Shown: one piece after another, positions 4,442 to 53,539 of the stretch
How the letters are laid out: every line of letters begins with the position of its first letter
Position numbering within the stretch: position 1 is the stretch's first letter
IMG/VR virus record: IMGVR_UViG_3300036766_002130
Location: 1-63,846 of that record
DNA from: a virus
Taxonomy: Duplodnaviria; Caudoviricetes
DNA: 63,846 nucleotides
Reading direction: 5' to 3' (one strand)
Translations under genes and position numbers: made by a program
Notes under the pieces: generated by a model
Told to the model about the DNA's origin: nothing
The model's input: only the letters and a program-made list of their open reading frames with translations
The model's database searches: none

Positions 4442-7129
4442 TTAAACCACTTTTAAGGGAAGTTGTTTACTTTCAATCAAACTCCGAAGTAGAACATGAA
4501 ATGCTGTTCCCTGAATAATGTTGTTGCCTAATTGGTTAACACTCAAAGGTCCAACCCTTCGCCAACCAGTAGGAGCTTCTACATAACCATCCTTCAAGTA
4601 ATCATGTATAACTTTATTTTGCCACTCCTTAACATAGTGGTACTCTTCCCAGAATTCTTTTTGTGTTTTAATTATATGCTCAACTGGAACTTCCGGAAAA
4701 GATCGGGCAATACTCTTAGCCGTTGAATTATAAACACTTGGGAATACAAATCCATTCTTACCTCGATATCTTTCATCTTTTGTTACCTCTTCTATCAACT
4801 TTTGAAAAACTTTACCTGCCCACCTTCTATGAGTATCAAAAGGATTCGCTCCACCTTCAGGATGTTCTTTACTCCACTTTTGACCTTCCTTAATCTGTCT
4901 AGTAAGTTCTGGATCTTTGGAAATCATCGCAATAAGCCTTACTTCCATCCCACTATAATCAACTTCGAGAAGAACTCTTGTTCTTCCACTTCCATCATTA
5001 AGAAACTCCTCTAACTTAACTTTCTTGTCTTTTCCAATTCTAACATAAAAACCGGACTCAGTAATCCCAACCGCGTGCATTTCATACCAATTCCATCCTA
5101 CTTCCCATTCAACCTCTAACGGAATATCCCCTTGCCAATCGAACCACTTGGAACACATAATTTCAGTTACTGTGTTAATTGCCTCTTTAACTACATATAT
5201 ATTGGTATCAAATGTAACACTATCATGAACTTCAAAAACTGGAACAATAGGAAACTTTCGTTCTACAGAAGGAATAATACATTTCCGAAACACCTTCAAT
5301 TCTTTATCATGCTTGAACACATTTTGAATGTTAGGGCTATCCGCACTAGATCTATAACTTTCAGCAAAATTCAAATTATATGAAGGATGTACATAACAAT
5401 TAGCATCCATTACATTTCTATAATTAGCTACCCGTTCGGTCAAACTGCAGCACTTCCGAAACCTAAAAAGAGAATTAACTAAAGTTCTTACTTCTTCATT
5501 CCTAGTTTTTTCAAGTATAGTATTTAGAGCTTCTTCATCAGTTGAACCTTTTTTGGTAGCAGTTTCTTTATACTTCTCCTCTCTATAAGTATCATATAAG
5601 ATTTTCTCTAATTGTGCTGGGGAATCTGGGTTAAAAATGCTATTGTGTTCCTCTTCATACTTCTTAACTCCAGGAAGAGAACGCATTTCTAAAACTCGAA
5701 GATCTTTTTCTTCTTGATAATCTTTTTCAAGTTTCTCCAGACAGTTCACATCAAGACGAATCCCATCCTCTCTCATATTCACAAGAGCCTTCGATCCTTC
5801 ATGAAGAAGTTGATAAAACTCTTCTAATCTACCTCTCTCCTCAAGAATTTTCCGTTGCCTATAATATGACATCAAGGTATATTGAACATCCCAACCCGTG
5901 TAATTACAAACATTTTTCAGTGGCTCGGACAGTAATTTTTTCACATCAACTGTTTTCTTGTACTCATGCCCGGTCATTTCATAAGCTTGAAAACCCAAAC
6001 TAGTAGTATAACGAGTATTATTTATAACATGTGCAGCTATCATGGTATCGTGCACATAGTTGTTCATAGGCTGATGTAAAAATACTCTATTCCAAATTTC
6101 CTCCATATTCACATTCTGAACAGCCTTTGGAGTATTACTTGCTAGAAAACTTTGCCATGCTCCAATTATCTTCTTTCGCTCTTCTTCTGTAAAAATTTCT
6201 TTCCCATCATCCCAGTGCAACTTAAGTGGAATAACTACAGCCGATTCAACATCATCCGTTATCGAAATAGACAAAAGATCAGCTCCAGCCTCCCAAGGAG
6301 TTAATGTAGTTGTTTCATAGTCATAAGAAATAACCTGTTTGGAGTCGGAAAAATATTCAAGGAGTTCTGTAATCTCAGAAACATCTGTAACGCATTTATT
6401 TCCATCTTCAGTTAGAGGCTTAGGAAGTGGTGTTCCAAGATATGATATCACATTTGCTAAATCATATCCAAACACAATTTCATCGTCTGGATACTTATCT
6501 GGCTTTCCTTTTCTATGGAGAAAGAATGCAGGATGAAACAAACAGCCAACCCAGCAATTATACTTATGGCAAGGAATAGCTCTTCCATGCATTTGATTTG
6601 CAGTAAAGCTAGATAGGTGCTGAGGTTTGAGAACTGCATTCATAGCAGGAGCACCCAAACATATAATAAAGTCAGGTTTTGTTTCTTCTATATCTTTCTC
6701 AAGTAAAGAATGGCAACACCTAATCTGGTCTTTGGTTGGGTTCTTATCCTTACCCTTCTTATCTTTTCCCGGATAGCACCGAACAACATTTGTTCTCCAA
6801 CAATCTTTATCTACATCAATACCAACGTAGCTAAGATACTTTCTCAACATGCTTCCAGAAGCACCAACAAAGGGAATACCTTGCTTATCTTCATTCCAAC
6901 CAGGGCAAAGTCCAACTATGAGAATCTTTTTCTTTCCATCTCCAAACCTCTCTATCTTTGGACTTCTACAGCTTTCACATAGTTTGCATGTGGAGCAATC
7001 ATAGACTTTTGGGGAAGATTTCCTGCCAGAGGTGCTTCCTCCACTAGATCTTCTCCTTCGAGATTCCTCAGGATGATCTCTCTGATACTCTTCAAAAGTG
7101 CTCATGAAGAAAGCGCGTTGCTTTGACAT
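4442..7129 (-). CDS. polA: Family A DNA polymerase with N-terminal uracil-DNA glycosylase and 3'-5' exonuclease; palm motifs permuted (C-A-B)
   Basis: UDG: CSTCKLC, GLCPGWNED..G.PFVGASG, TNVVRC, HPA. Exonuclease: YDYETT, YTGWD. Polymerase: RSS..SPNIQN, EVHDS, DYSGMEVR, RYRGKNGFVFPSVY, NNIIQGTA. Confidence 0.93.
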   Translation of the reverse strand: MSKQRAFFMSTFEEYQRDHPEESRRRRSSGGSTSGRKSSPKVYDCSTCKLCESCRSPKIERFGDGKKKILIVGLCPGWNEDKQGIPFVGASGSMLRKYLSYVGIDVDKDCWRTNVVRCYPGKDKKGKDKNPTKDQIRCCHSLLEKDIEETKPDFIICLGAPAMNAVLKPQHLSSFTANQMHGRAIPCHKYNCWVGCLFHPAFFLHRKGKPDKYPDDEIVFGYDLANVISYLGTPLPKPLTEDGNKCVTDVSEITELLEYFSDSKQVISYDYETTTLTPWEAGADLLSISITDDVESAVVIPLKLHWDDGKEIFTEEERKKIIGAWQSFLASNTPKAVQNVNMEEIWNRVFLHQPMNNYVHDTMIAAHVINNTRYTTSLGFQAYEMTGHEYKKTVDVKKLLSEPLKNVCNYTGWDVQYTLMSYYRQRKILEERGRLEEFYQLLHEGSKALVNMREDGIRLDVNCLEKLEKDYQEEKDLRVLEMRSLPGVKKYEEEHNSIFNPDSPAQLEKILYDTYREEKYKETATKKGSTDEEALNTILEKTRNEEVRTLVNSLFRFRKCCSLTERVANYRNVMDANCYVHPSYNLNFAESYRSSADSPNIQNVFKHDKELKVFRKCIIPSVERKFPIVPVFEVHDSVTFDTNIYVVKEAINTVTEIMCSKWFDWQGDIPLEVEWEVGWNWYEMHAVGITESGFYVRIGKDKKVKLEEFLNDGSGRTRVLLEVDYSGMEVRLIAMISKDPELTRQIKEGQKWSKEHPEGGANPFDTHRRWAGKVFQKLIEEVTKDERYRGKNGFVFPSVYNSTAKSIARSFPEVPVEHIIKTQKEFWEEYHYVKEWQNKVIHDYLKDGYVEAPTGWRRVGPLSVNQLGNNIIQGTAFHVLLRSLIESKQLPLKVV

Positions 7130-10765: not shown

Positions 10766-11119
10766 TCATACTCGCGCATCGCTAATAAAGGAAGCACTGT
10801 TAGGAATATCACCGATTGTTATCAAACCAGCATCTAAAGCTGCTGCCCTATTAAGAATGAAACTTGCCAGAAATCCTTTATTTTTACATTCCTTTTGTCC
10901 TTTTTGAGTTCCCCAAGCAATTTGATTTTCAACTGCCCCACGAGTGTAGCTTCTACCACTTATTAAGTGTAATGCTGGGATAAGCTTTTCAAGAAACCTG
11001 TTATATTCCTGTCTATCCCCTGGAGGATTTGTCAGTCTCTTCCAACTACTAATAGGACCATACTCCTTTTTTAACGCCTCATACATTATTCTTCTTAAAT
11101 CTTGATTCCACTTTACCAT
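10766..11119 (-). CDS. Hypothetical protein behind a repeated promoter
   Basis: ORF with an AAGGAG RBS. Confidence 0.65.
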   Translation of the reverse strand: MVKWNQDLRRIMYEALKKEYGPISSWKRLTNPPGDRQEYNRFLEKLIPALHLISGRSYTRGAVENQIAWGTQKGQKECKNKGFLASFILNRAAALDAGLITIGDIPNSASFISDARV

Positions 11120-12112: not shown

Positions 12113-12229
12113 GACGAAAGCAACCTTTCATCTCCACAGGCGTTGATTTGGCTGGCCCCCAGCCTATTAAATTTGAATCCTCTTACCTCAACTTCTGTAT
12201 CCTATGGCTAAAGCCCATAGGTTTTAGAA
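12113..12229 (-). mobile_element. Internally deleted IS200/IS605 (tnpB) derivative: left end, RBS and partial omegaRNA
   Basis: 12181-12204 equals 33010-33033; 12131-12167 equals 31917-31953; left-end hairpin TTCTAAAACCTATGGGCTTTAGCCATAGG. Confidence 0.85.
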
Positions 12230-22242: not shown

Positions 22243-23286
22243 TTATTGTTTGATTAAGGATAAAAACTCAGATCGCACCTCATCCTCTGAAAAACTCCCT
22301 TCTATCGCACTCGTAACAAGCTCCGAGGAGTTTGTCTTCACTCCTCGAATCTTCATACACATATGCTCCCCTTTCAACAAAACAAACACCCCTCGGGGTT
22401 TCAACATACTGGAAAGTGAATCCTTTACTTTACTGGTAATATTTTCTTGCAAGTCTGGGACAGAACAAAATAGCTCTACCAATCTCTGAGGTTTGGATGC
22501 TCCAAGAACAAATCCATTAGGAATAATCCCAATATAATACTTGTATAGCACAGGCAACAAATGATGTGGACACATCCCTATAGTCTCTCCTTTATAAATA
22601 ATCATCTCATCATTTTGGGAAGGAAAAACTGTAGATAGGATGTCCTTTACTTCTGCTCCAAAGTTTAGAAACAAACCTGAGCAGAGCTCCATATACATTC
22701 TAGATACTCTTTGGGGGGTTTCCTTGAAATTAGGATCATCTAAAGGAATCTTCATTGAATGCAGGAGGGCATGAATTGCTCGCTTAATCATGTTCATACC
22801 TGCAAATTTTTGTTCTTCTCTTCTAATCCTGTTATGAAGCTTTCCATGGCAACTTTTACATAACAAAATATAGTTGGATAAGTCAGAAGAGTAGTAGTCA
22901 TAGGATAAGTGATGGGAACACAACTGACCAGCACAATCACACTTCTTCCCACACCTCTCACAAACCAACCCCCTCTCATCTACCAACTTCTTTTTGATAG
23001 TTCTATCATTTTTTTGGTAAGTTATTACAAGAGTTTTGCTCCCCCTTCTTTTTATTTGCTTTGCCCTCTTCTTTCCATAAATCTTTTCATATGTTTTACC
23101 TCTAGTATTTTGATTCTTCAACTTCTTGGTTTGCTCTGTCTCAATAGGAGCGTCTGGAAACTTCCCCATATACTCTTTCACGGTTATTCCATGAAACTTT
23201 CCTAGATGAGTATTAGTAATCTCTTTAAAACGTTTTTGACACAATCTACAAACCACAAAATCAACTTCTTCTTTACCTTCCATCAT
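22243..23286 (-). CDS. folE: GTP cyclohydrolase I fused to an N-terminal zinc finger, NUMOD3-like and HNH region
   Basis: N-terminal: CRLC...HL..FH, GKTYEKIYG, CERC...HH...NYILLCKSCH..LH. C-terminal: ETPQRV, MCPHHLLP, LQE, HMCMKIRG. Confidence 0.9.
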   Translation of the reverse strand: MMEGKEEVDFVVCRLCQKRFKEITNTHLGKFHGITVKEYMGKFPDAPIETEQTKKLKNQNTRGKTYEKIYGKKRAKQIKRRGSKTLVITYQKNDRTIKKKLVDERGLVCERCGKKCDCAGQLCSHHLSYDYYSSDLSNYILLCKSCHGKLHNRIRREEQKFAGMNMIKRAIHALLHSMKIPLDDPNFKETPQRVSRMYMELCSGLFLNFGAEVKDILSTVFPSQNDEMIIYKGETIGMCPHHLLPVLYKYYIGIIPNGFVLGASKPQRLVELFCSVPDLQENITSKVKDSLSSMLKPRGVFVLLKGEHMCMKIRGVKTNSSELVTSAIEGSFSEDEVRSEFLSLIKQ

Positions 23287-29182: not shown

Positions 29183-30565
29183 CTACTCCGGTCTATCTAT
29201 TTGTGTTTCTCGTTGTATGGGCTTACAGAACTGGGCAAACTGCCCTATCTTAAACACATTATAAATTATGCACCCAAAACCTTGCGGTCCGGAACGGTTA
29301 ACTTCTATGTACACATTCATTAGATTTTGAGCTACTTGAGCTTCATTAGTACATAAAGAAATGCCCAAATCAATATTAGCTAACTTACGAATATCTCCCG
29401 CCGGCAGCTGAGCTTGAGAAACATGACTCTTACCATATCCTGCTCTAGTAATCTGACTCGCTGTAACTACTAAGATATTACGCTGATCAGCAATACTTTT
29501 CAAACCAATATAAGTTTCGTTAATAGCCTCGTGCTTTTCTTCGGAATGTGGAAGCTTCATAATCTCAACGTAGTCTGTTATCAAAACATCAGGAATAAAA
29601 TTATTAAAGGCTTCAAGATAATTTAGAACCCTCTCAATCTCTCCTAAACTACATGTACCCATAGGATATTTGCGAATTTTCATTTTACCACCGGACCTAG
29701 TCAGTAACCGGGTTACCTCTTCTTGTTCATTTAAGTCCGAGAGCAGTTTCGGAGAAAATAAGGATTCTTTTTCCACCCCATCCTCCCAGTACTTCGTGAC
29801 GACGGAATCAATCTCTTCCAAGGAGAGACTTCTCACTTTTTGATAGAGGCGTTGCCCCACTTCTGACGCTTTAAGTTCGTGAGTCAAATAAAGAACGTTA
29901 TGTCCAAGAGTTAATGCCTCGTTCGCTACGTTCAGGCATGCCCAGGATTTTGCTCCTTTCGCTGGACCAAAGAAGCATATTAGTTGACCACGTTTTAAAC
30001 CTCCAACTTTCTCATCGAGAAGAGGTACACCAAGGTTACTTATAATCTCGCTCTTCAAATCTTTTTCTTGAAGGAAATCTGAGCCATCATCGGGAATGGT
30101 TAAGAAAGTTTCTTTTTCTGGAACCCCTCTTCTCAAGGCCTTCATCAGAATTTGTTCTACTTCTTCCTCTTCTCCTCTTTCAACTAGAGGTGCAGCCTGC
30201 TTTAATGCTTCTTCAATAGATCGAGCTCTTATAAATTTGTTGATCCTTGCAAGAACATATTCCTTACTAGGGGGTGCCATCTCTTGAAGTTTCTCCAAGT
30301 ATCTAAAATATAGCTTTTTCCTCTCCTCATCAAATCTTTCTACGAAATGTTCAATCTCACCATTAAAATCAGCCCATCCCTCACCTACTGGAGCTCGTCC
30401 AAATTGGTCGTAGTAGTTGTAACACAAGCGAACAATGTCACTCGTGATTGAAGAGAAGTAGTTTGAAGGAATAGATAGCCTGGATATTCTAGCGAATTCG
30501 CTGTCTGTAATTATTAGGTACAGAAAACAATCTTGTAAGTATTGGCCTATAATTTTTTCACCCAT
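29183..30565 (-). CDS. dnaB: Replicative SF4 helicase (DnaB-like)
   Basis: GGLKRGQL...GPAKGAKS, YLTHE, ITDYVEIM, VTASQITR. Confidence 0.85.
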   Translation of the reverse strand: MGEKIIGQYLQDCFLYLIITDSEFARISRLSIPSNYFSSITSDIVRLCYNYYDQFGRAPVGEGWADFNGEIEHFVERFDEERKKLYFRYLEKLQEMAPPSKEYVLARINKFIRARSIEEALKQAAPLVERGEEEEVEQILMKALRRGVPEKETFLTIPDDGSDFLQEKDLKSEIISNLGVPLLDEKVGGLKRGQLICFFGPAKGAKSWACLNVANEALTLGHNVLYLTHELKASEVGQRLYQKVRSLSLEEIDSVVTKYWEDGVEKESLFSPKLLSDLNEQEEVTRLLTRSGGKMKIRKYPMGTCSLGEIERVLNYLEAFNNFIPDVLITDYVEIMKLPHSEEKHEAINETYIGLKSIADQRNILVVTASQITRAGYGKSHVSQAQLPAGDIRKLANIDLGISLCTNEAQVAQNLMNVYIEVNRSGPQGFGCIIYNVFKIGQFAQFCKPIQRETQIDRPE

Positions 30566-30576
30566 TTCTACTCCTT

Positions 30577-31716
30577 TTACAAAATGTTATTTATCTGCTT
30601 CCAGATAGGAAAGTCATTCTCCCACACCATAGGTTTGAGTAACACAGATAATCGAGGAACAATTCCTTTGTTCTTGTATTCACTTTCCAAGAATTTCCCA
30701 AAGGTTGTAATCCAAGTCCACTTATCCTGGATTGGGGAACCTTTATAAGCAACATATAGGTTATTTGCTATTTGAATAAGATCGTTCAAAACTTCAGATG
30801 AGGGTTTCCATTCTTCGGTAGAAGTAGCTTGACCAGTAAATTGCCCCCAGTAGTTAATAAGCAGCTTTGACAATTCAGGGTCCTTTTCTCGAACATCATA
30901 CTTCTTACTCTTCAGTTTTGCTTCTTCGAGAAGAATATCGAATTTCCGAACAATAGCTCCTGCACTGAAGCGATCATTAGGCCACCCAAGTGGGGACATC
31001 ACAAAATCAATAACTTCAACAATCTCGTTATAATCCCTTTCATCTTTTGAAAGAGCTCTCTGGTATTCCTTTGCCCATTTTTGAAGAGTTCTCTCCTTTT
31101 CGAGTTTTCGGTCCGGGTAACATTTGAGAAGAGATAGTGCTTGGTGTTCTGCAAGTTTGTAAGCTGGGGAGCTGTGATTGGTGAGCCTAAGTTGCTTCCC
31201 CTTATCATCCTTCTTATTAGGAGTAGGAAGGTTAGATTCCTGAAAGGGAAAACCTGAAGGGTTATCTTCCGTAGGAAGATTATCTGTCTTTCTAAATACA
31301 TGCTCTTTATTTATATTATTATCTTTATTTATATACACCTGCTTTTCTCGAGCCTTGAGTTTCTTTGACTCTCGAAAAATGTTAAGACTCGAAACATCTA
31401 TTGTCTCGACTACTTCCTTCCATTCAGAGGTGCTCATAGATAGAAATGAGACCACGCGGATAGTACCTTTAAGCTGACCACCTTTCCAGTAAAATAGATA
31501 TCCTTTTTTTTCCAATTCTCGTAGAATAGTGCTTAAAGCATTCTTGTTCATCTTGTAGCGCTTTAGTATTTCTGAATTATGAATTACCCAGTTCTTAGGG
31601 TAGGAAAGGCACTCTACTAATAAACCAAATGCTTGGACACTTAAATTGTAATCTCTCACGAGAGTGTTAGGAATAGCAGTATATTCCCCTCCTTCAGGGA
31701 TATATTTAATTATCAT
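30577..31716 (-). CDS. Putative replication initiator (N-terminal winged helix)
   Basis: YTAIPN.LVRD..LS..A.GL..CLS.P.NW...LRELEKKGY; upstream of dnaB. Confidence 0.65.
   Translation of the reverse strand: MIIKYIPEGGEYTAIPNTLVRDYNLSVQAFGLLVECLSYPKNWVIHNSEILKRYKMNKNALSTILRELEKKGYLFYWKGGQLKGTIRVVSFLSMSTSEWKEVVETIDVSSLNIFRESKKLKAREKQVYINKDNNINKEHVFRKTDNLPTEDNPSGFPFQESNLPTPNKKDDKGKQLRLTNHSSPAYKLAEHQALSLLKCYPDRKLEKERTLQKWAKEYQRALSKDERDYNEIVEVIDFVMSPLGWPNDRFSAGAIVRKFDILLEEAKLKSKKYDVREKDPELSKLLINYWGQFTGQATSTEEWKPSSEVLNDLIQIANNLYVAYKGSPIQDKWTWITTFGKFLESEYKNKGIVPRLSVLLKPMVWENDFPIWKQINNIL
31086..31146. repeat. 61-bp segment of the initiator gene, duplicated at 31753-31813
   Basis: 59/61 identical; both differences are synonymous. 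Confidence 0.92.
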
Positions 31717-31790
31717 CCTTTTACCTCCTCATCAGCGGATCTCTTTCATACTGAGTTCTTTCTTTTTCGAGTTTTCGGTCCGGGTAACAT

Positions 31791-31960
31791 TTGAGAAGAG
31801 ATAGTGCTTGGTGAGCCTCCTATGGCTAAAGCTCATAGGCTTCCAACAGGTTATCCTGTTCTTCTTTTTCCTGCTTCAGCGAGGACCACTGCTCCAAAGG
31901 AGCTGTAACCTTATCCTCTCCACAGGCGTTGATTTGGCTGGCCCCCAGCCTATGTATGTT
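31791..31960 (-). ncRNA. TnpB omegaRNA (scaffold, right-end hairpin ending TCAC, and guide)
   Basis: GCCTGTGGAGA...CTGAAGCAGGAA...GAAGCCTATGAGCTTTAGCCATAGGAGGCTCAC followed by CAAGCACTATCTCTTCTCAA; the 5' boundary is approximate. Confidence 0.75.
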
Positions 31961-33010
31961 TATAGCTGCGTTAAGATCTCTATCTAAGCTAAATCCACAA
32001 ACCTTACAATTAAATACTCTATCACTTAAAGTTAGCTCCTCGTTCTTCCAACCACATCTACTGCAAGTCTTACTACTTGGATAGAATTTATCTATCTTCA
32101 AGAAGTACTTGCTGTTCCAAAGCGCTTTATACTCTAACTGTCTTACAAATTCGGACCAAGCTACATCAGCAACAGATTTTGCAAGGTGATGATTCCTCAT
32201 CATTCCAGATATATTTAGATCTTCAACCACAACACCATCATACTTGGCTATCATATGAGATGTTAGTTTGTGAAGAAAATCTAATCTTACATCCTTTATC
32301 TTCTGATGTATCCTATGGACCTTCTTTCTTTGCTTATTCCTGTTAACACTTCCTTTCTGTTTTCTACTCAATCTTCTTTGTTCTCTAACCAACTTTTCCT
32401 CATACCTCTTCATGTGTTTTGGATTAATAATTATGGTCCCGTCTGATAAAGTAGCAAACGCATTTAACCCTAAATCTACTCCAACAAGATTATTTGCCTT
32501 TTTCTCTTTCTCCCGAATCTCAAATTCACAAGTTACTGAACAATACCATCTATTTCCATCTTGTAAAACCGTAATATGTTTTGGTTTACCTTGAAGAGAT
32601 CGATGTTTTATCCATCTTACTTCTCCTATTTTTGGAATATGAACAAAGCTTTTCTTCAACTTCCATCCTTGAGGACAAGTAAAGGAATCATTGTCTTTCT
32701 TCTTCTTAAACTTTGGAAAACCTCTGTTACTCCTAAAGCTATCTCTTAATGCTCTATCCAATTGTCTTGCTACAGTTTGTAAAGATTGAGAAAAAGATAG
32801 ATTTAGAAAATCAAATTCTTTCTTCAACTTAGGTATGGACATTGACATTTCGTAGAAAAATTTGAATTTCTTTGTTTCCTTATAATAGTCAGTATTGTTC
32901 TTGAGCAAGTAATTCCAGAGAAAACGAGCATTACCTCCCTGCTGAAGCAGCATAACTCTCTGCTCCTCTGTTGGATATATTCTAAATTTAAACCCTTTTT
33001 GAATCTTCAT
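31826..33010 (-). CDS. tnpB: IS200/IS605-family RNA-guided nuclease TnpB with intact catalytic residues
   Basis: KFRIYPT, GFPKFK, GVDLG, VVEDL, SSKTCSRC...CKVC, DRDLNAAINI. Confidence 0.96.
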   Translation of the reverse strand: MKIQKGFKFRIYPTEEQRVMLLQQGGNARFLWNYLLKNNTDYYKETKKFKFFYEMSMSIPKLKKEFDFLNLSFSQSLQTVARQLDRALRDSFRSNRGFPKFKKKKDNDSFTCPQGWKLKKSFVHIPKIGEVRWIKHRSLQGKPKHITVLQDGNRWYCSVTCEFEIREKEKKANNLVGVDLGLNAFATLSDGTIIINPKHMKRYEEKLVREQRRLSRKQKGSVNRNKQRKKVHRIHQKIKDVRLDFLHKLTSHMIAKYDGVVVEDLNISGMMRNHHLAKSVADVAWSEFVRQLEYKALWNSKYFLKIDKFYPSSKTCSRCGWKNEELTLSDRVFNCKVCGFSLDRDLNAAINIHRLGASQINACGEDKVTAPLEQWSSLKQEKEEQDNLLEAYEL

Positions 33011-33034
33011 CTTACCTCAACTTCTGTATCCTAA

Positions 33035-33051
33035 TATCATTATACTGTCTC
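33035..33051 (-). promoter_or_regulatory. Promoter element GAGACAGTATAATGATA upstream of tnpB
   Basis: Identical 17-mer at 34640-34656; contains TATAAT. Confidence 0.65.
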
Positions 33052-33203
33052 CCCTATTCCTTTTTAGTTTTTTTATTTTTTCCTTAAACTTTCCCTTGCT
33101 ATTCCCCGCCCTTCTTCCTCACTCTCTTAACCGACTTACGTAATCCAATCAGCTACTGAGGAAATATGGAAGGGTTATATTTAATTATCATCCTTTTCTC
33201 CTT

Positions 33204-33530
33204 TTACTTCGTCTTCTTACTACTACGTCGAGCCCTATTAGAATTCTTCAACTGCTTTTTAGTGGGATACTCTGTTTCTACCTTAAGTTTCAGATTATCC
33301 AGGATGTTCACAAATTTGTTTAAAACTTCATTTTGATTCTTGGCAATAAGGATGAGCCTATCTATTTGATCATACTGAATATCATTGGTGCTACTTATTT
33401 TGACTACTACAGTCCACAGTTTTGAGATGTCCCTTTCATAGATCTTTGCAGCTCGGCAAAAACCACAGTACAAACCTACTATAAAGCTAAACACAATACA
33501 AGAAATAGTGATCAGAATTGTTGTAACCAT
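33204..33530 (-). CDS. Membrane-anchored hypothetical protein
   Basis: N-terminal transmembrane segment; AAGGAG RBS. Confidence 0.6.
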   Translation of the reverse strand: MVTTILITISCIVFSFIVGLYCGFCRAAKIYERDISKLWTVVVKISSTNDIQYDQIDRLILIAKNQNEVLNKFVNILDNLKLKVETEYPTKKQLKNSNRARRSSKKTK

Positions 33531-33550
33531 CTTCTTTCTCCTTACAAAAT

Positions 33551-34507
33551 TTATTTTAATCTTACAAAATCTTCTAGCTTAATACCTGCCTTCTGCAACG
33601 TTCCAGCTTCTTCCACATCCTTCAAAAATCTGAGCCCATCAACGTAGTATCCTGCGGTTGGCCTTAGACCAGGCTGTAGCTTAGTAAAGAAGTTATTCAT
33701 ATATTCCATCACTTTTTCTCGAACATACTTCCCAACCATTGAAGCCAGAGCTACTGGGAAATAGTTACTATCAGCTCCTACTTCAAATAGAATATCTAAA
33801 CTTGTTTTTCCTGAGCACATTTTATATTCTGATTCTTCCAGACCCGAATTACTTGAAATTAAATTAAAATCTGGTAACTTTGTAAGCATTTCTTCATAGT
33901 AAGTCCGACCCCCAATCCTATCACAAACCACAAAAACCTGTTTTTCATTGAAAAAAGAAGCAAGAGCAGTAGCTGATTGAATATGTTCAAGTACCGAACT
34001 TATTACTAACTCCGCTTTGTTTCCGGTAGCTTGAACTCTCTGGTTAAACTCAGAAACATCAAAATAGCAGCATCTAGTATCCAAAAGCCGGATTCCCTGC
34101 TCTTTCATGTTCTTGGATAATTTAGTCGTAGCATCTACATCCTTCTTGAAGAGAAGGTTCTCACAAGTCTTTGGATACCAAGGGTATTTCCGAAGTTGAG
34201 AATTTGCAGTTATAGATACCGAAGCTAACAAATGAGGGAAGTTATCTATCTCCAAACCAAGTTGACCAAGGAAAGCCAAAGTAGTTCGCTCAAGGTGTTT
34301 GATTCCAGAACTTTGGCTAAAGGCTTTTTTGCTATCGGTAACTAATAGTCGGCTTTTAAGATTTCTTTTCTTCTTAGAAACAGCTTCTTTGAGATAGTAC
34401 CACAAGTCGTCTTTAGGGTTTGGGACCGAGAAGACAGTGGAAGTTACTACTAAAGGGCCTAGAATGGAACCATAACCATTTTCGTCGATTCCAGCAACAA
34501 TTGGCAT
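33551..34507 (-). CDS. rnhB: Ribonuclease HII-like protein (start ATG 34507)
   Basis: GIDENGYGSILGPLVV, DSKK, D..GGR, ALASMVGKY.RE, TAGY. Confidence 0.82.
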   Translation of the reverse strand: MPIVAGIDENGYGSILGPLVVTSTVFSVPNPKDDLWYYLKEAVSKKKRNLKSRLLVTDSKKAFSQSSGIKHLERTTLAFLGQLGLEIDNFPHLLASVSITANSQLRKYPWYPKTCENLLFKKDVDATTKLSKNMKEQGIRLLDTRCCYFDVSEFNQRVQATGNKAELVISSVLEHIQSATALASFFNEKQVFVVCDRIGGRTYYEEMLTKLPDFNLISSNSGLEESEYKMCSGKTSLDILFEVGADSNYFPVALASMVGKYVREKVMEYMNNFFTKLQPGLRPTAGYYVDGLRFLKDVEEAGTLQKAGIKLEDFVRLK

Positions 34508-34510
34508 TTC

Positions 34511-34635
34511 AGATCTCCTTACAGAAGACAGTGAGCTACCTATGGCTGAACCACAGGCTTCCTGCTTCAGCGAAGCGTACTTGTGCTTCTCCACAGGCAT
34601 TGTCTTGATAGGCTCCCTACCAATTTGTAAAGATA
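34511..34635 (-). ncRNA. Orphan TnpB omegaRNA-like locus
   Basis: GCCTGTGGAGAAGCAC...GCTTCGCTGAAGCAGGAAGCCTGTGGTTCAGCCATAGGTAGCTCAC followed by TGTCTTCTGTAAGGAGATCT. Confidence 0.7.
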
Positions 34636-34721
34636 TCACTATCATTATACTGTCTCTCCTTCTCTTCTTTAGAAAAATCTTCGTAAAGAATCTGCATCAT
34701 ACTGGGTGGCGAGAAAAGTGC

Positions 34722-35234
34722 TTAAAACAATAATGTGTCCTCTCCAGTCAAAATTTCTCCACCCATTTCTACTGGTTTCCAAAATCTAATCTCAACTTTA
34801 CCCCACCCTGAAGGTTTGCAACCCAACACTGAGTATTTTAGCCTTCCAAGGCAGCAGGCGACAACTTCGCGTTGGAAAGATCCCAAACCCACGGTTGCTT
34901 TCTGAAAATAATCCTTGGAAACTATAAGAGAAAATGTAAAGATTTCCTTTTCCCCTTCAAAGATGTTTATTGTAACTGTACCACTATTGCAAGCAATTGT
35001 CTTTCCTTGCGCATCTGCCAGAGTAAAGTAAACTACTATGCCATCCGAACCTTCCTTATAGGCACAAACATTTTTAATGTACTCTGGATTCCCATACACA
35101 AGCTCTAACTGCTCCGGTTTAGTTTCGTGAACCGGTATATATCCACATCTTAAATAAGAGCTAGTTACTAATATCACGCTTACTGCTACTATCAACCCCA
35201 CAAACATCAACATTGCCATAATTAGCTTCTTCAT
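34722..35234 (-). CDS. Exported protein with the MKKLI signal module
   Basis: Shared leader and hydrophobic N-terminus. Confidence 0.7.
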   Translation of the reverse strand: MKKLIMAMLMFVGLIVAVSVILVTSSYLRCGYIPVHETKPEQLELVYGNPEYIKNVCAYKEGSDGIVVYFTLADAQGKTIACNSGTVTINIFEGEKEIFTFSLIVSKDYFQKATVGLGSFQREVVACCLGRLKYSVLGCKPSGWGKVEIRFWKPVEMGGEILTGEDTLLF

Positions 35235-38523: not shown

Positions 38524-38559
38524 TTCTAAACCTATGAGCTTTAGCTATAGGAGGCCCAC
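38524..38559 (+). mobile_element. Minimal IS200/IS605 derivative (single hairpin)
   Basis: TAAC then TTCTAAACCTATGAGCTTTAGCTATAGGAGGCCCAC. Confidence 0.75.
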
Positions 38560-44505: not shown

Positions 44506-44542
44506 TTCTAAAACCTATGGGCTTTAGCCATAGGTAGATGAC
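44506..44542 (+). mobile_element. Minimal IS200/IS605 derivative (single hairpin)
   Basis: TGAC then TTCTAAAACCTATGGGCTTTAGCCATAGGTAGATGAC. Confidence 0.78.
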
Positions 44543-53451: not shown

Positions 53452-53499
53452 TATTATAATTTCCTTCCATTCTAAAGTATAGTTGTTTACAAGTATTGT

Positions 53500-53539
53500 G
53501 AACAGGAAAGCCTATGAGCTTTAGCCATAGGTAGCTCAC
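53500..53539 (+). mobile_element. IS200/IS605 right-end remnant
   Basis: CAGGAAAGCCTATGAGCTTTAGCCATAGGTAGCTCAC. Confidence 0.75.

What the first reader, a model, noticed from the sequence alone, without database searches (positions are those of the whole stretch)
31086..33197. Immobilised TnpB whose guide matches an allele of the neighbouring initiator gene
Seen: (a) TnpB keeps its RuvC D/E/D residues and zinc finger, and no tnpA is present in the window. (b) Its left-end hairpin, intact in the copy at 12201-12229, is cut to TAGG and replaced by a TATAAT promoter. (c) After the right end TCAC, the flank (31753-31813) matches the initiator gene (31086-31146) at 59/61, and both differences are synonymous (AAG/AAA, GAG/GAA), so it appears to come from a diverged coding allele. 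(d) The gene's first codons and leader are also duplicated upstream of tnpB (33176-33197 equals 31701-31722). (e) The motif before left ends elsewhere is TAAC, TAAC, TGAC, while the phage's own target is preceded by ACAC. Inference: a domesticated RNA-guided nuclease that cuts the initiator allele of related phages while the resident escapes by lacking the TAM, or one that regulates its own gene.
Basis: partly seen in the sequence, partly recalled or inferred. Interest (0 to 1): 0.85.

Follow-up and report, generated by a model that had tools for sequence, protein, structure and literature searches.

The report
Immobilised phage TnpB aimed at initiator gene
A phage carries a stranded but intact RNA-guided nuclease (TnpB) whose built-in guide matches the phage's own replication-initiator gene, a leftover of an old insertion into that gene; one base change beside the target may protect the resident copy while close relatives stay exposed.

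Summary
The observations hold. An intact 394-aa TnpB (31826-33010, minus strand) keeps its RuvC D/E/D residues and zinc finger. Its left end is cut down to TAGG and abuts a copy of a conserved phage promoter-like 17-mer. The window has no tnpA. The DNA after the right end (TCAC) repeats initiator codons 192-211 (56/58; 59/61 counting CAC), and the initiator's RBS and first codons are duplicated upstream.

Relatives explain the history. L002 has the empty site, with orf108 running straight into the initiator. The element's right boundary is exactly the canonical one, so the IS transposed into an initiator gene after codon 191. An intact copy was then restored by illegitimate recombination, and the left end was deleted.

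New here: every other allele has Tyr at codon 191 (TAT, or TAC in the 99% strain L003). Only this genome has His (CAC), the same three bases that end the element (its TEM). L003 has ATAC plus a perfect target.

Best reading (about 0.4): an insertion scar that still works as an RNA-guided free-standing homing or exclusion nuclease against TAC alleles. An inert relic is nearly as likely. There is one genome and no expression data.

The parts
33204..33530 (-). orf108, small membrane-type protein. In relative L002 its stop is followed after 12 nt by the initiator start (the empty site).
33171..33202 (-). Copy A: RBS plus the first 21 nt of the initiator gene (ATG at 33189-33191). It is an L002-like allele (Asn6) and is cut off after AACCCT.
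33034..33170 (-). S3, filler of unknown origin. Its 3' end (33035-33051) is a 17-mer with TATAAT (33039-33044), identical to the conserved promoter-like element upstream of the RNase HII gene.
   Evidence: (an X3 contig links its 5' half to another initiator allele)
33011..33033 (-). Remnant of the IS left end: the last 4 nt (TAGG) of the hairpin, then the leader with the RBS of tnpB. About 27 nt (TTCTAAAA plus most of the hairpin) are missing.
31826..33010 (-). tnpB, 394 aa, with intact RuvC D179/E263/D345 and a CxxC..CxxC zinc finger.
31811..31990 (-). Predicted omegaRNA scaffold, overlapping the 3' end of tnpB. It holds a RAGATH-18-like core (31868-31926), the right-end hairpin (31819-31839) and the element end (TEM) TCAC (31811-31814). 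The 5' limit is approximate.
31795..31810 (-). Predicted 16-nt guide CAAGCACTATCTCTTC, the first bases after the element end.
31753..31810 (-). S5: copy of initiator codons 192-211 (56/58 to the resident gene), the flank into which the IS once inserted.
31717..31752 (-). S6: 36 nt joining S5 to the intact gene. Its last 17 nt resemble the orf108 tail plus RBS (14/17). The S5|S6 junction lies in the 9-11-nt words AGAGAACTC / ACTCAGTATGA, which occur upstream of the initiator in relatives.
30577..31716 (-). Intact replication-initiator / helicase-loader-like gene (379 aa), followed by the DnaB-like helicase gene (29183-30565).
31128..31147 (-). Resident protospacer (31128-31143, 16/16 to the guide, 45 nt in a row identical) preceded by ACAC (31144-31147). 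Codon 191 is CAC (His) where all relatives have TAT/TAC (Tyr).

Best explanation
What it is: the scar of an IS200/IS605-type transposition into the phage's replication-initiator gene, which left a stranded but complete TnpB-omegaRNA unit.

Steps:
1. The IS inserted after codon 191 (..GAA TAC | CAA GCA..) of an initiator allele of this lineage.
2. An intact initiator was regained by illegitimate (microhomology) recombination with an intact genome. This left initiator codons 192-211 (S5) stuck to the right end, followed by upstream-type sequence (S6) and a whole gene.
3. The broken 5' gene part and about 27 nt of the left end were lost. TnpA can therefore no longer move the element, and tnpB now sits behind a copy of a phage promoter-like element.
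4. The guide is by construction the old insertion flank, so it matches the intact gene 667 nt downstream. That gene carries T>C at position -3 of the TAM place (Tyr191His). Its flank now reads ..CAC like the element's own end (TEM), which TnpB must ignore.

How it most likely works now: TnpB and its omegaRNA are made from the phage operon and spare the resident gene. In mixed infection they cut initiator alleles that keep ..TAC before the same target (as in L003). Repair from the resident genome would copy the resident allele and possibly the cassette. This is RNA-guided 'intronless homing' or marker exclusion.

Shown: the anatomy, the empty site, the exact right boundary, the truncated left end, the intact catalytic residues, the unique His codon, and the TAC allele in L003.

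Inferred: the order of events, expression, that NTAC is a usable TAM and CAC is not, and any benefit.

My confidence in the history is about 0.8. My confidence in present-day targeting of relatives is about 0.3-0.35. The figure given for the whole statement is 0.4.
For: Empty site:
- L002 has orf106 stop, 12 nt, then the initiator. The window has about 1.44 kb extra, flanked by a 27-32-nt repeat.
- An X4 contig joins 31684 to 33171.

Transposition origin:
- The right boundary ..GGCTCAC| is the boundary seen in other copies: TAGCTCAC| at 53.5 kb and in the RNase HII mini-element of the window, L002 and L005.
- After it comes in-frame initiator sequence.

Rescue junction:
- The 9-mer AGAGAACTC occurs in 184 kb of held sequence only at initiator codons 209-211, in the L002 orf106 tail and at one unrelated place.
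- The 11-mer ACTCAGTATGA occurs only at S5|S6 and at the end of the TnpB-like ORF upstream of orf108 in L004/L005.

Immobilisation: the left-end hairpin is reduced to TAGG, while X2 and X3 copies keep it with TAAC.

Competence:
- D/E/D and zinc finger are present.
- The scaffold has a RAGATH-18-like core (E 0.0015, below the gathering score) and is conserved in four copies.
- The promoter-like 17-mer is shared with a conserved upstream region.

TAM place:
- Tyr191 is present in 3 of 3 database homologues, in L003, L004 and L005, and in contigs of 3 of 3 other runs.
- Against L003, this is the only isolated non-synonymous change in the 230 aligned initiator codons. The 5 other isolated changes are synonymous, and the rest fall in two variable patches.
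- A left end of this family sits after CTAC in L016/L017, so NTAC is used by the transposase.

Literature (passages read): for G. stearothermophilus TnpB, single-base TAM changes abolish cleavage, and the TEM at the right end differs from the TAM, so the element's own site is not recognised. The 2026 review lists intronless homing by sequence substitutions and treats copying of the transposon into coinfected phages as theoretical (sections read).
Against: - Only one genome shows the cassette. L003's contig starts inside the gene, so it is unknown whether L003 carries the cassette.
- The commonest left-end flank is TAAC (12.2 kb, 38.5 kb, X2, X3). ATAC differs from it at two places. In the one TnpB tested in the paper read, single TAM changes abolish cutting. 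ATAC may therefore not be cut at all, and T>C would then be drift.
- Most relatives have ATAT, which lacks the AC shared by all flanks. At best few alleles are targets.
- The T>C could be copied from the adjacent RE-S5 junction by gene conversion, because CAC is part of the 59/61 repeat.
- The insertion is young (1 derived change in 58 nt of S5), so an intact ORF is weak evidence of selection.
- Differences to the X2 copy are 7 non-synonymous to 4 synonymous.
- The promoter-like element failed the sigma-70 scan.
- No Logan contig of run X1 covers 31127-31367. The CAC codon and its linkage to the cassette therefore rest on the original assembly.
- The origin of S3 and S6 is only weakly traced.
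Confidence: 0.4

Rival explanations
1. Inert relic. The same history applies (insertion into the initiator, rescue by recombination, loss of the left end), but the nuclease has no target. Its TAM is strictly TAAC-like, no initiator allele carries it, and the Tyr191His change is drift or gene conversion from the neighbouring repeat. The cassette is simply too young to have decayed.
For: TAAC flanks dominate. Single-base TAM changes abolish cleavage in the tested homologue. S5 is only about 2% diverged. The 7:4 non-synonymous to synonymous ratio against the X2 copy gives no sign of constraint. The phage is littered with dead mini-elements.
Against: The IS did insert at this N(T/C)AC site, and another family member sits after CTAC. 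The only isolated amino-acid change in the initiator against its 99% relative hits the codon that forms the TAM place, at a residue otherwise invariant down to 45-50% identity. The deletions removed the gene debris on both sides but spared the RBS, ORF, scaffold and guide, and placed a conserved promoter-like element 25 nt before the ATG.
Confidence: 0.35
2. TnpB is kept for ordinary transposon homing in trans. The nuclease serves the omegaRNA-bearing mini-element at the RNase HII promoter (34531-34626), and perhaps others, cutting relatives that lack that mini-element. The initiator-matching guide is a by-product.
For: The mini-element keeps the RAGATH-18-like core, hairpin and TCAC end. Its flank TGTCTTCTGTAAGGAG matches the empty site of L004 (CTTTAC|TATCTTCTGTAAGGAG) at 15/16, behind a TTTAC motif.
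Against: That mini-element has another type of left end and another flank motif (TTTAC, not TAAC). Its scaffold lacks about 45 nt present in the full element. Nothing shows that one TnpB accepts both.
Confidence: 0.1
3. Self-regulation. The TnpB-omegaRNA complex binds the initiator gene or its mRNA (the omegaRNA lies in the 5' leader of the initiator transcript) and tunes initiator expression.
For: tnpB, omegaRNA, S5, S6 and the initiator lie head to tail on one strand with no terminator-like site called on that strand between them. TnpB is reported to process its own mRNA into omegaRNA (PMC10278001, abstract in the search listing only).
Against: The catalytic residues are intact, unlike the TldR repressors. 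Binding without a TAM is not expected for TnpB. There is no conservation of the arrangement to lean on.
Confidence: 0.05
4. Assembly artefact. The duplication or the CAC codon is a chimera of strains in the metagenome.
For: The region is strain-variable. Logan contigs of X1 break at the repeats and leave 31127-31367 uncovered.
Against: X1 contigs with 0 differences span every junction: 31368-31793 (initiator start/S6/S5), 31784-31946 (S5/right end) and 33004-35000 (tnpB start/S3/copy A/orf108). X1 is probably the source sample, so this is a second assembler and not a second sample. A graph mis-join cannot create GAACACCAAGC without reads that hold it.
Confidence: 0.04

Closest known systems
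IS200/IS605-family TnpB-omegaRNA (OMEGA) nucleases, e.g. ISDra2 and the G. stearothermophilus ISGst TnpBs
   Same: Same protein family (E 1e-61 to ISDra2 TnpB structures). The guide RNA is encoded at the 3' end and reads into the flank. TAM and TEM logic applies, and the nuclease cuts copies of the site that lack the element (passages read).
   Different: The left end is destroyed and no tnpA was found, so the unit cannot transpose. The guide's match is not a vacated donor joint but an intact essential gene 667 nt away in the same genome. Self and non-self would differ by one TAM base rather than by presence of the element.
Free-standing homing endonucleases of phages (T4 SegF, SegG, MobE; 'intronless homing', localized marker exclusion)
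   Same: A nuclease gene wedged between conserved genes. The target lies in a nearby conserved gene, and the resident allele differs by substitutions. The expected outcome is conversion of a co-infecting relative (review PMC13565253, sections 3.2 and 6.1 read).
   Different: Those enzymes recognise DNA by protein contacts (GIY-YIG, HNH). Here recognition would be by a guide RNA plus a TAM. No cleavage or co-conversion has been shown here.
TldR, TnpB-like nuclease-dead repressors encoded by prophages
   Same: A TnpB relative fixed in a phage genome, no longer mobile, with a natural guide against a specific gene (abstracts in search listings).
   Different: TldR has lost the RuvC catalytic residues and targets a host promoter. 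This protein keeps D/E/D and its guide matches a phage coding sequence.
Phage-borne tnpB copies described as passengers (e.g. cyanophage A-1(L))
   Same: tnpB present in one phage and absent from close relatives (10.64898/2026.02.14.705889, passages read).
   Different: In the passages read, that copy is identical to host IS copies and no guide-target relation is reported. Here the guide, its target and a target-adjacent change can be read from the sequence.

Membership tests
TnpB (IS200/IS605 accessory RNA-guided nuclease) | Domain set: HTH_OrfB_IS605 + OrfB_IS605 (RuvC) + TNB zinc-ribbon | tested here: met
   Pfam E 9e-17, 1.5e-32 and 7e-24, all above the curated cut-offs.
TnpB (IS200/IS605 accessory RNA-guided nuclease) | RuvC catalytic D, E, D and CxxC..CxxC | tested here: met
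   Aligned to 8h1j/8bf8: D179, E263, D345, C316/C319, C335/C338. The ISDra2 residue numbers are recalled, not taken from a call.
TnpB (IS200/IS605 accessory RNA-guided nuclease) | omegaRNA scaffold overlapping the ORF 3' end and ending at the right end | tested here: inconclusive
   RAGATH-18 hit of 31.5 bits, below the gathering score of 44.9 (E 0.0015). The core and hairpin are conserved in 4 copies with 3 compensatory pairs. The fold z-score is only -1.9. No RNA data.
Mobile IS200/IS605 element | Both subterminal hairpins with cleavage motifs (TAM at the left, TEM at the right) | tested here: not met
   The right end is complete. The left end lacks TTCTAAAA and all but 4 nt of the hairpin, and no TAM is next to it.
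Mobile IS200/IS605 element | Y1 transposase TnpA available | tested here: not met
   No PF01797 match in the window, and the controls ring. The record is about 41% complete and a host copy cannot be excluded.
TldR (nuclease-dead TnpB-like repressor) | Loss of RuvC catalytic residues | tested here: not met
   All three are present.
IStron | Group I intron fused to the IS | tested here: not met
   No intron family among the Rfam matches at E<=1 in 31600-33300.
Free-standing homing endonuclease (intronless homing), functional class | Nuclease gene present or absent between conserved genes in relatives | tested here: met
   L002 and an X4 contig have the empty site.
Free-standing homing endonuclease (intronless homing), functional class | Target in a nearby conserved gene; resident allele differs from susceptible alleles | tested here: inconclusive
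   The guide matches the resident and L003 alleles 16/16. The flank is ACAC against ATAC. Whether that difference decides cleavage is not known.
Free-standing homing endonuclease (intronless homing), functional class | Cleavage of the relative's allele and co-conversion in mixed infection | not testable with these tools
   Needs bench assays. The phage is uncultured.

The most novel reading that the evidence does not exclude
A lytic-type phage has turned a transposon's TnpB into an RNA-guided free-standing homing endonuclease. Fixed next to the replication-initiator gene and driven by a phage promoter, it cuts the initiator allele of co-infecting close relatives. It tells self from non-self by a single TAM base (TAC against CAC, at the price of a Tyr-to-His change in the initiator). 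It thereby spreads itself and its linked replication module. This would be the first natural case of intronless homing by an RNA guide, and a snapshot of how an OMEGA nuclease gets domesticated.
Probability: 0.27. Interest if true: 0.85.

Novelty: new variant of a known kind. Interest (0 to 1): 0.6.

Why it matters
TnpB is the ancestor of Cas12, and the known routes out of transposon life are CRISPR effectors and nuclease-dead TldR regulators. A nuclease-competent TnpB that has lost mobility, sits in a phage replication module and carries a guide against an allele series of an essential phage gene would be a third route. It would be an RNA-guided counterpart of the Seg/Mob endonucleases that shape phage mosaicism.

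The case is directly testable with one protein, one RNA and two target plasmids that differ by one base. Even if the cassette proves inert, the locus documents two things: how an IS insertion into an essential phage gene can be survived through partial duplication, and that this phage group's RNase HII-initiator region is a hot spot for TnpB-family elements.

Tried and rejected
- Close relatives of the initiator in IMG/VR: none with the window's protein or with P0003.
- Annotated phage records: one 270-bp transposase match only.
- Close relatives of this TnpB, to read its TAM: the best were 40-48% in genome contigs and 42% in viral contigs.
- The hairpin pattern in IMG/VR gave only L016/L017, another locus of related phages.
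- The S6 21-mer in IMG/VR: 0 hits.
- The guide 18-mer in IMG/VR: 2 unrelated chance hits.
- S3 as a decayed copy of initiator codons 153-191: the local alignment scores no better than shuffles. Rejected.
- S6 as a later part of the initiator: 169 of 500 shuffles score as well. Rejected.
- A simple tandem duplication of the resident's own sequence: rejected, because the two copies of the start region differ by an 8-nt indel and 4 of 17 upstream bases.
- Other initiator-like fragments in the window: none (tblastn).
- tRNA genes as a host hint: none.
- Sequencing runs: no RNA holder listed, so nothing can be said on expression.
- In X1 no listed contig covers 31127-31367. A hole proves nothing.
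- An X2 82-nt contig joins S6 to window 11036 downwards. It may be a deletion variant or a chimera and was left open.
- An X3 contig links 31321 to 33116. It hints that the 5' half of S3 lies upstream of another initiator allele, but I could not see its letters.
- Supplementary files of papers were not consulted. TAM tables in the supplements of the TnpB papers might bear on how strict such TAMs are.


Full report
SETTING

The window is an IMG/VR virus record of 63,846 bases, judged about 41% complete. It is 38.7% G+C. It carries a family-A DNA polymerase fused to a UDG-like domain, an SNF2 helicase, GTP cyclohydrolase I and Ig-domain structural proteins. I read it as a tailed bacteriophage of unknown host, and runs holding it are labelled sediment metagenomes.

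All genes around the finding lie on the minus strand. In reading order they are:
- RNase HII-like gene
- orf108 (33530-33204)
- the tnpB region
- a 379-aa gene with an N-terminal HTH that matches PHROGs named DnaD-like helicase loader, replication initiation protein and replisome organizer (30577-31716)
- a DnaB-like helicase gene (29183-30565)

'Initiator' is thus a fair name for the 379-aa gene, by family resemblance and position only.

THE OBSERVATION

TnpB (31826-33010) has the three Pfam domains of the family. It aligns over 352 residues with the ISDra2 TnpB structures (E 1e-61), with the RuvC D, E, D and both CxxC pairs in place.

No Y1 transposase is in the window.

The repeat 31753-31813 / 31086-31146 is 59/61. 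Its last three letters, CAC, are the end of the element (TCAC, 31811-31814). The flank proper is therefore 58 nt, matching at 56/58, and both differences are synonymous. The first 45 nt after the element end are identical to the resident gene.

The start of the initiator with its RBS is repeated at 33171-33197 (26/27).

The left end is truncated. The mini-copy at 12.2 kb reads TAAC|TTCTAAAA-hairpin-ATACAGAAG. The full copy keeps only TAGG-ATACAGAAG. Contigs of two other runs (X2, X3) that match tnpB up to 33033 go on into a whole hairpin and a TAAC flank.

WHAT REPLACES THE LEFT END

The 17 bases GAGACAGTATAATGATA directly upstream (33035-33051) recur once in the window, upstream of the RNase HII gene. 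There they are conserved in three related contigs, about 30 nt before the RBS.

That is good evidence for a borrowed phage control element. That it is a promoter is inference. The consensus scan did not call it, because no good -35 is present.

RELATIVES AND THE EMPTY SITE

The protein library holds three relatives of the initiator, at 84, 73 and 50% identity. A metagenome scan brought their loci.
- L002 (84%) is syntenic over 10 kb. Its orf108 homologue stops 12 nt before the initiator ATG. Relative to it, the window has about 1.44 kb extra, bounded by the 27-32-nt repeat.
- A contig in run X4 shows the same empty join.
- L003 is a 99%-identical strain whose contig starts at initiator codon about 149.
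- L004 and L005 (45-50%) are more distant.

HOW THE STRUCTURE AROSE

The right boundary of the element..GGCTCAC|, is the boundary seen at the other right ends of this family. Random breakage would not hit it. The DNA after it is in-frame initiator sequence from codon 192. So the IS transposed into an initiator gene after codon 191.

S5 is as close to the resident gene as to L003 (2 differences each) and farther from L002 (5). The hit allele therefore belonged to this lineage. It is not a 'diverged' one.

S5 ends at ..AGAACTC. The 9-mer AGAGAACTC occurs in 184 kb of held sequence only at initiator codons 209-211, in the tail of L002's orf106 (666 nt upstream of the other) and at one unrelated place. 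The 11-mer ACTCAGTATGA that spans the S5|S6 junction occurs otherwise only at the end of a TnpB-like ORF that sits upstream of orf108 in L004/L005. The last 17 nt of S6 resemble the orf108 tail and RBS (14/17).

I read S5|S6 as an illegitimate, microhomology-guided join. It links the broken gene of an IS-bearing genome to sequence that natively lies just upstream of the initiator in an intact genome. That single event puts a whole initiator behind the broken one.

The two copies of the start region differ by an 8-nt indel and several bases. This argues for two parental alleles and against a duplication within one genome.

The loss of initiator codons 8-191 and of the left-end hairpin, and the origin of the 135-nt filler S3, are not explained. 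S3 has no significant likeness to any initiator allele. One X3 contig hints that its 5' half lies upstream of another initiator allele. These parts of the history are inference.

THE TAM PLACE

On the minus strand the resident gene reads GCA GAA CAC | CAA GCA CTA TCT CTT C. L003 reads GAA TAC before the same target. L002, L004 and L005 read TAT. Contigs of runs X2, X3 and X4 also read TAT.

At the protein level Tyr is invariant in the three database homologues, down to 50% identity. His191 is therefore derived and, so far, unique to the genome with the cassette.

Against L003 the initiator shows two short variable patches (codons 168-180 and 246-247) and six isolated substitutions. Five of the six are synonymous, and the sixth is Tyr191His. 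The helicase gene has only two synonymous differences.

A single isolated amino-acid change landing on the one codon that abuts the protospacer would be a 1-in-100-or-so coincidence among 230 codons. It is less striking (about 1 in 10) if one only asks for any substitution within four bases.

The new flank, CAC, equals the last three bases of the element (its TEM). In the G. stearothermophilus system the TEM differs from the TAM at two positions, single-base TAM changes abolish TnpB cleavage, and the site of omegaRNA biogenesis is thereby 'completely unrecognizable' (passages read in PMC10055086). By the same logic, a genome that holds both the guide and an intact matching gene must lose the TAM, and T>C is a one-step way to do so.

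WHAT SPEAKS AGAINST A WORKING WEAPON

- The left-end flanks of this family are TAAC (12.2 kb, 38.5 kb, X2, X3), TGAC (44.5 kb) and CTAC (L016/L017).
L003 has ATAC and the others ATAT.
- If the nuclease is as strict as the tested homologue, ATAC may not be cut. CTAC shows only that the transposase accepts NTAC.
- T>C might also have been copied from the RE-S5 junction by gene conversion, since CAC lies at the edge of the repeat.
- The insertion is young, so an open reading frame is weak evidence of selection. The differences from the X2 copy are 7 non-synonymous to 4 synonymous.
- No RNA run holds the stretch.
- The Logan contigs of X1, the probable source sample, confirm every junction of the structure with zero differences. 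They leave 31127-31367 uncovered. The His codon and its phase with the cassette therefore rest on the original assembly.
- No second genome with the cassette was found.

THE GUIDE RNA

The 3' end of tnpB and the following 15 nt hold a sub-threshold match to Rfam RAGATH-18 (31.5 bits against a gathering score of 44.9, E 0.0015). After this come a short stem, the right-end hairpin and TCAC.

The same core, hairpin and end are kept in the mini-element between the RNase HII promoter and RBS in the window, L002 and L005, with three compensatory pairs among four sequences. That link of RAGATH-18 with tnpB is my recollection, not a call. The guide has no other close match in the window.

VERDICT

The history is well supported (about 0.8): an IS605-type element landed in an essential phage gene, the phage survived through partial duplication, and the element lost its left end.

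The present function is open. I put about 0.3-0.35 on real, TAM-discriminated cutting of TAC alleles in relatives. That would make this an RNA-guided analogue of the free-standing homing endonucleases of T-even phages. A 2026 review of OMEGA systems lists that mode for protein endonucleases and treats transposon copying into coinfected phages as theoretical (sections 3.2 and 6.1 read). I put about 0.35 on an inert young relic, and the rest on trans-service to other mini-elements, self-regulation or artefact.

My two literature searches returned no paper describing a nuclease-active, immobilised phage TnpB with a guide against a phage gene. TldR, which is nuclease-dead and has a host target, and passenger tnpB copies in cyanophages are the nearest. 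Two searches are not proof of absence.

I rate it a new variant of a known kind, interest 0.6.

Noticed in passing
window 34531-34626 (-), with L002:4620-4795, L005:1520-1712 and L004:160-200: A mini-IS sits between the conserved promoter-like element and the RBS of the RNase HII gene. It has a different left end (after TTTAC) but the same omegaRNA-like core, hairpin and TCAC end. L004 has the empty site CTTTAC|TATCTTCTGTAAGGAG, which matches the window's flank at 15/16. This is a canonical homing set-up that the phage's TnpB might serve in trans.
   Followed up: partly
L004:1269-2375 and L005:2797-3903: Two relatives carry a second, very divergent TnpB-like ORF (26% identical to the window's, D/E/D kept) between RNase HII and orf108, behind a solo right-end-like hairpin. 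Its last bases overlap and supply a new start (MRFE..) to the orf108 homologue. The RNase HII-initiator stretch looks like a hot spot for TnpB-family elements.
   Followed up: partly
window 12124-12229 (-), 38524-38559 (+), 44506-44542 (+), 53491-53539 (+); L016:2943-2979, L017:4946-4982: These are hairpin-only or internally deleted mini-elements (PATE-like) of the same IS family. They have flanks TAAC, TAAC, TGAC, TTTAC and CTAC and ends TCAC, CCAC or TGAC.
   Followed up: partly
run X2 contig on window 31728-31782, continuing as window 11036-11010 (-): An 82-nt contig joins the end of S6 to the inside of ORF 10766-11119, 20.7 kb away and out of frame. This may be a deletion variant of a cassette-bearing phage, or a chimera.
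   Followed up: partly
initiator alleles P0001-P0004; window 31177-31214 and 30976-30981: The initiator is mosaic. P0003 has an unrelated N-terminal part of about 140 aa but a near-identical C-terminal part. Against the 99% strain L003, changes cluster in two short patches (codons 168-180 with a 9-nt indel, and 246-247).
   Followed up: no
L004:1236-1260 / L005:2764-2788: The flank after the solo right end in L004/L005 (TTAC|TAGATAGTGCTCAAC) contains AGATAGTGCT, the reverse complement of 10 nt of the window's guide core. This may be chance. It is unexplained.
   Followed up: no
window 22243-23286 (-) and 4442-7129 (-): There is a GTP cyclohydrolase I homologue and a family-A polymerase with an N-terminal UDG-superfamily domain. 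The former may hint at a modified-base pathway (my recollection), which could affect nuclease sensitivity of the phage DNA.
   Followed up: no
run X3 contig ending at window 33193: In X3 a strain with near-identical orf108 (2 differences in 1336 nt) diverges exactly at the initiator RBS into sequence that resembles the second type of IS left end (..AAAAGATATTGTGAGAA..). This may be another insertion at the same junction.
   Followed up: no
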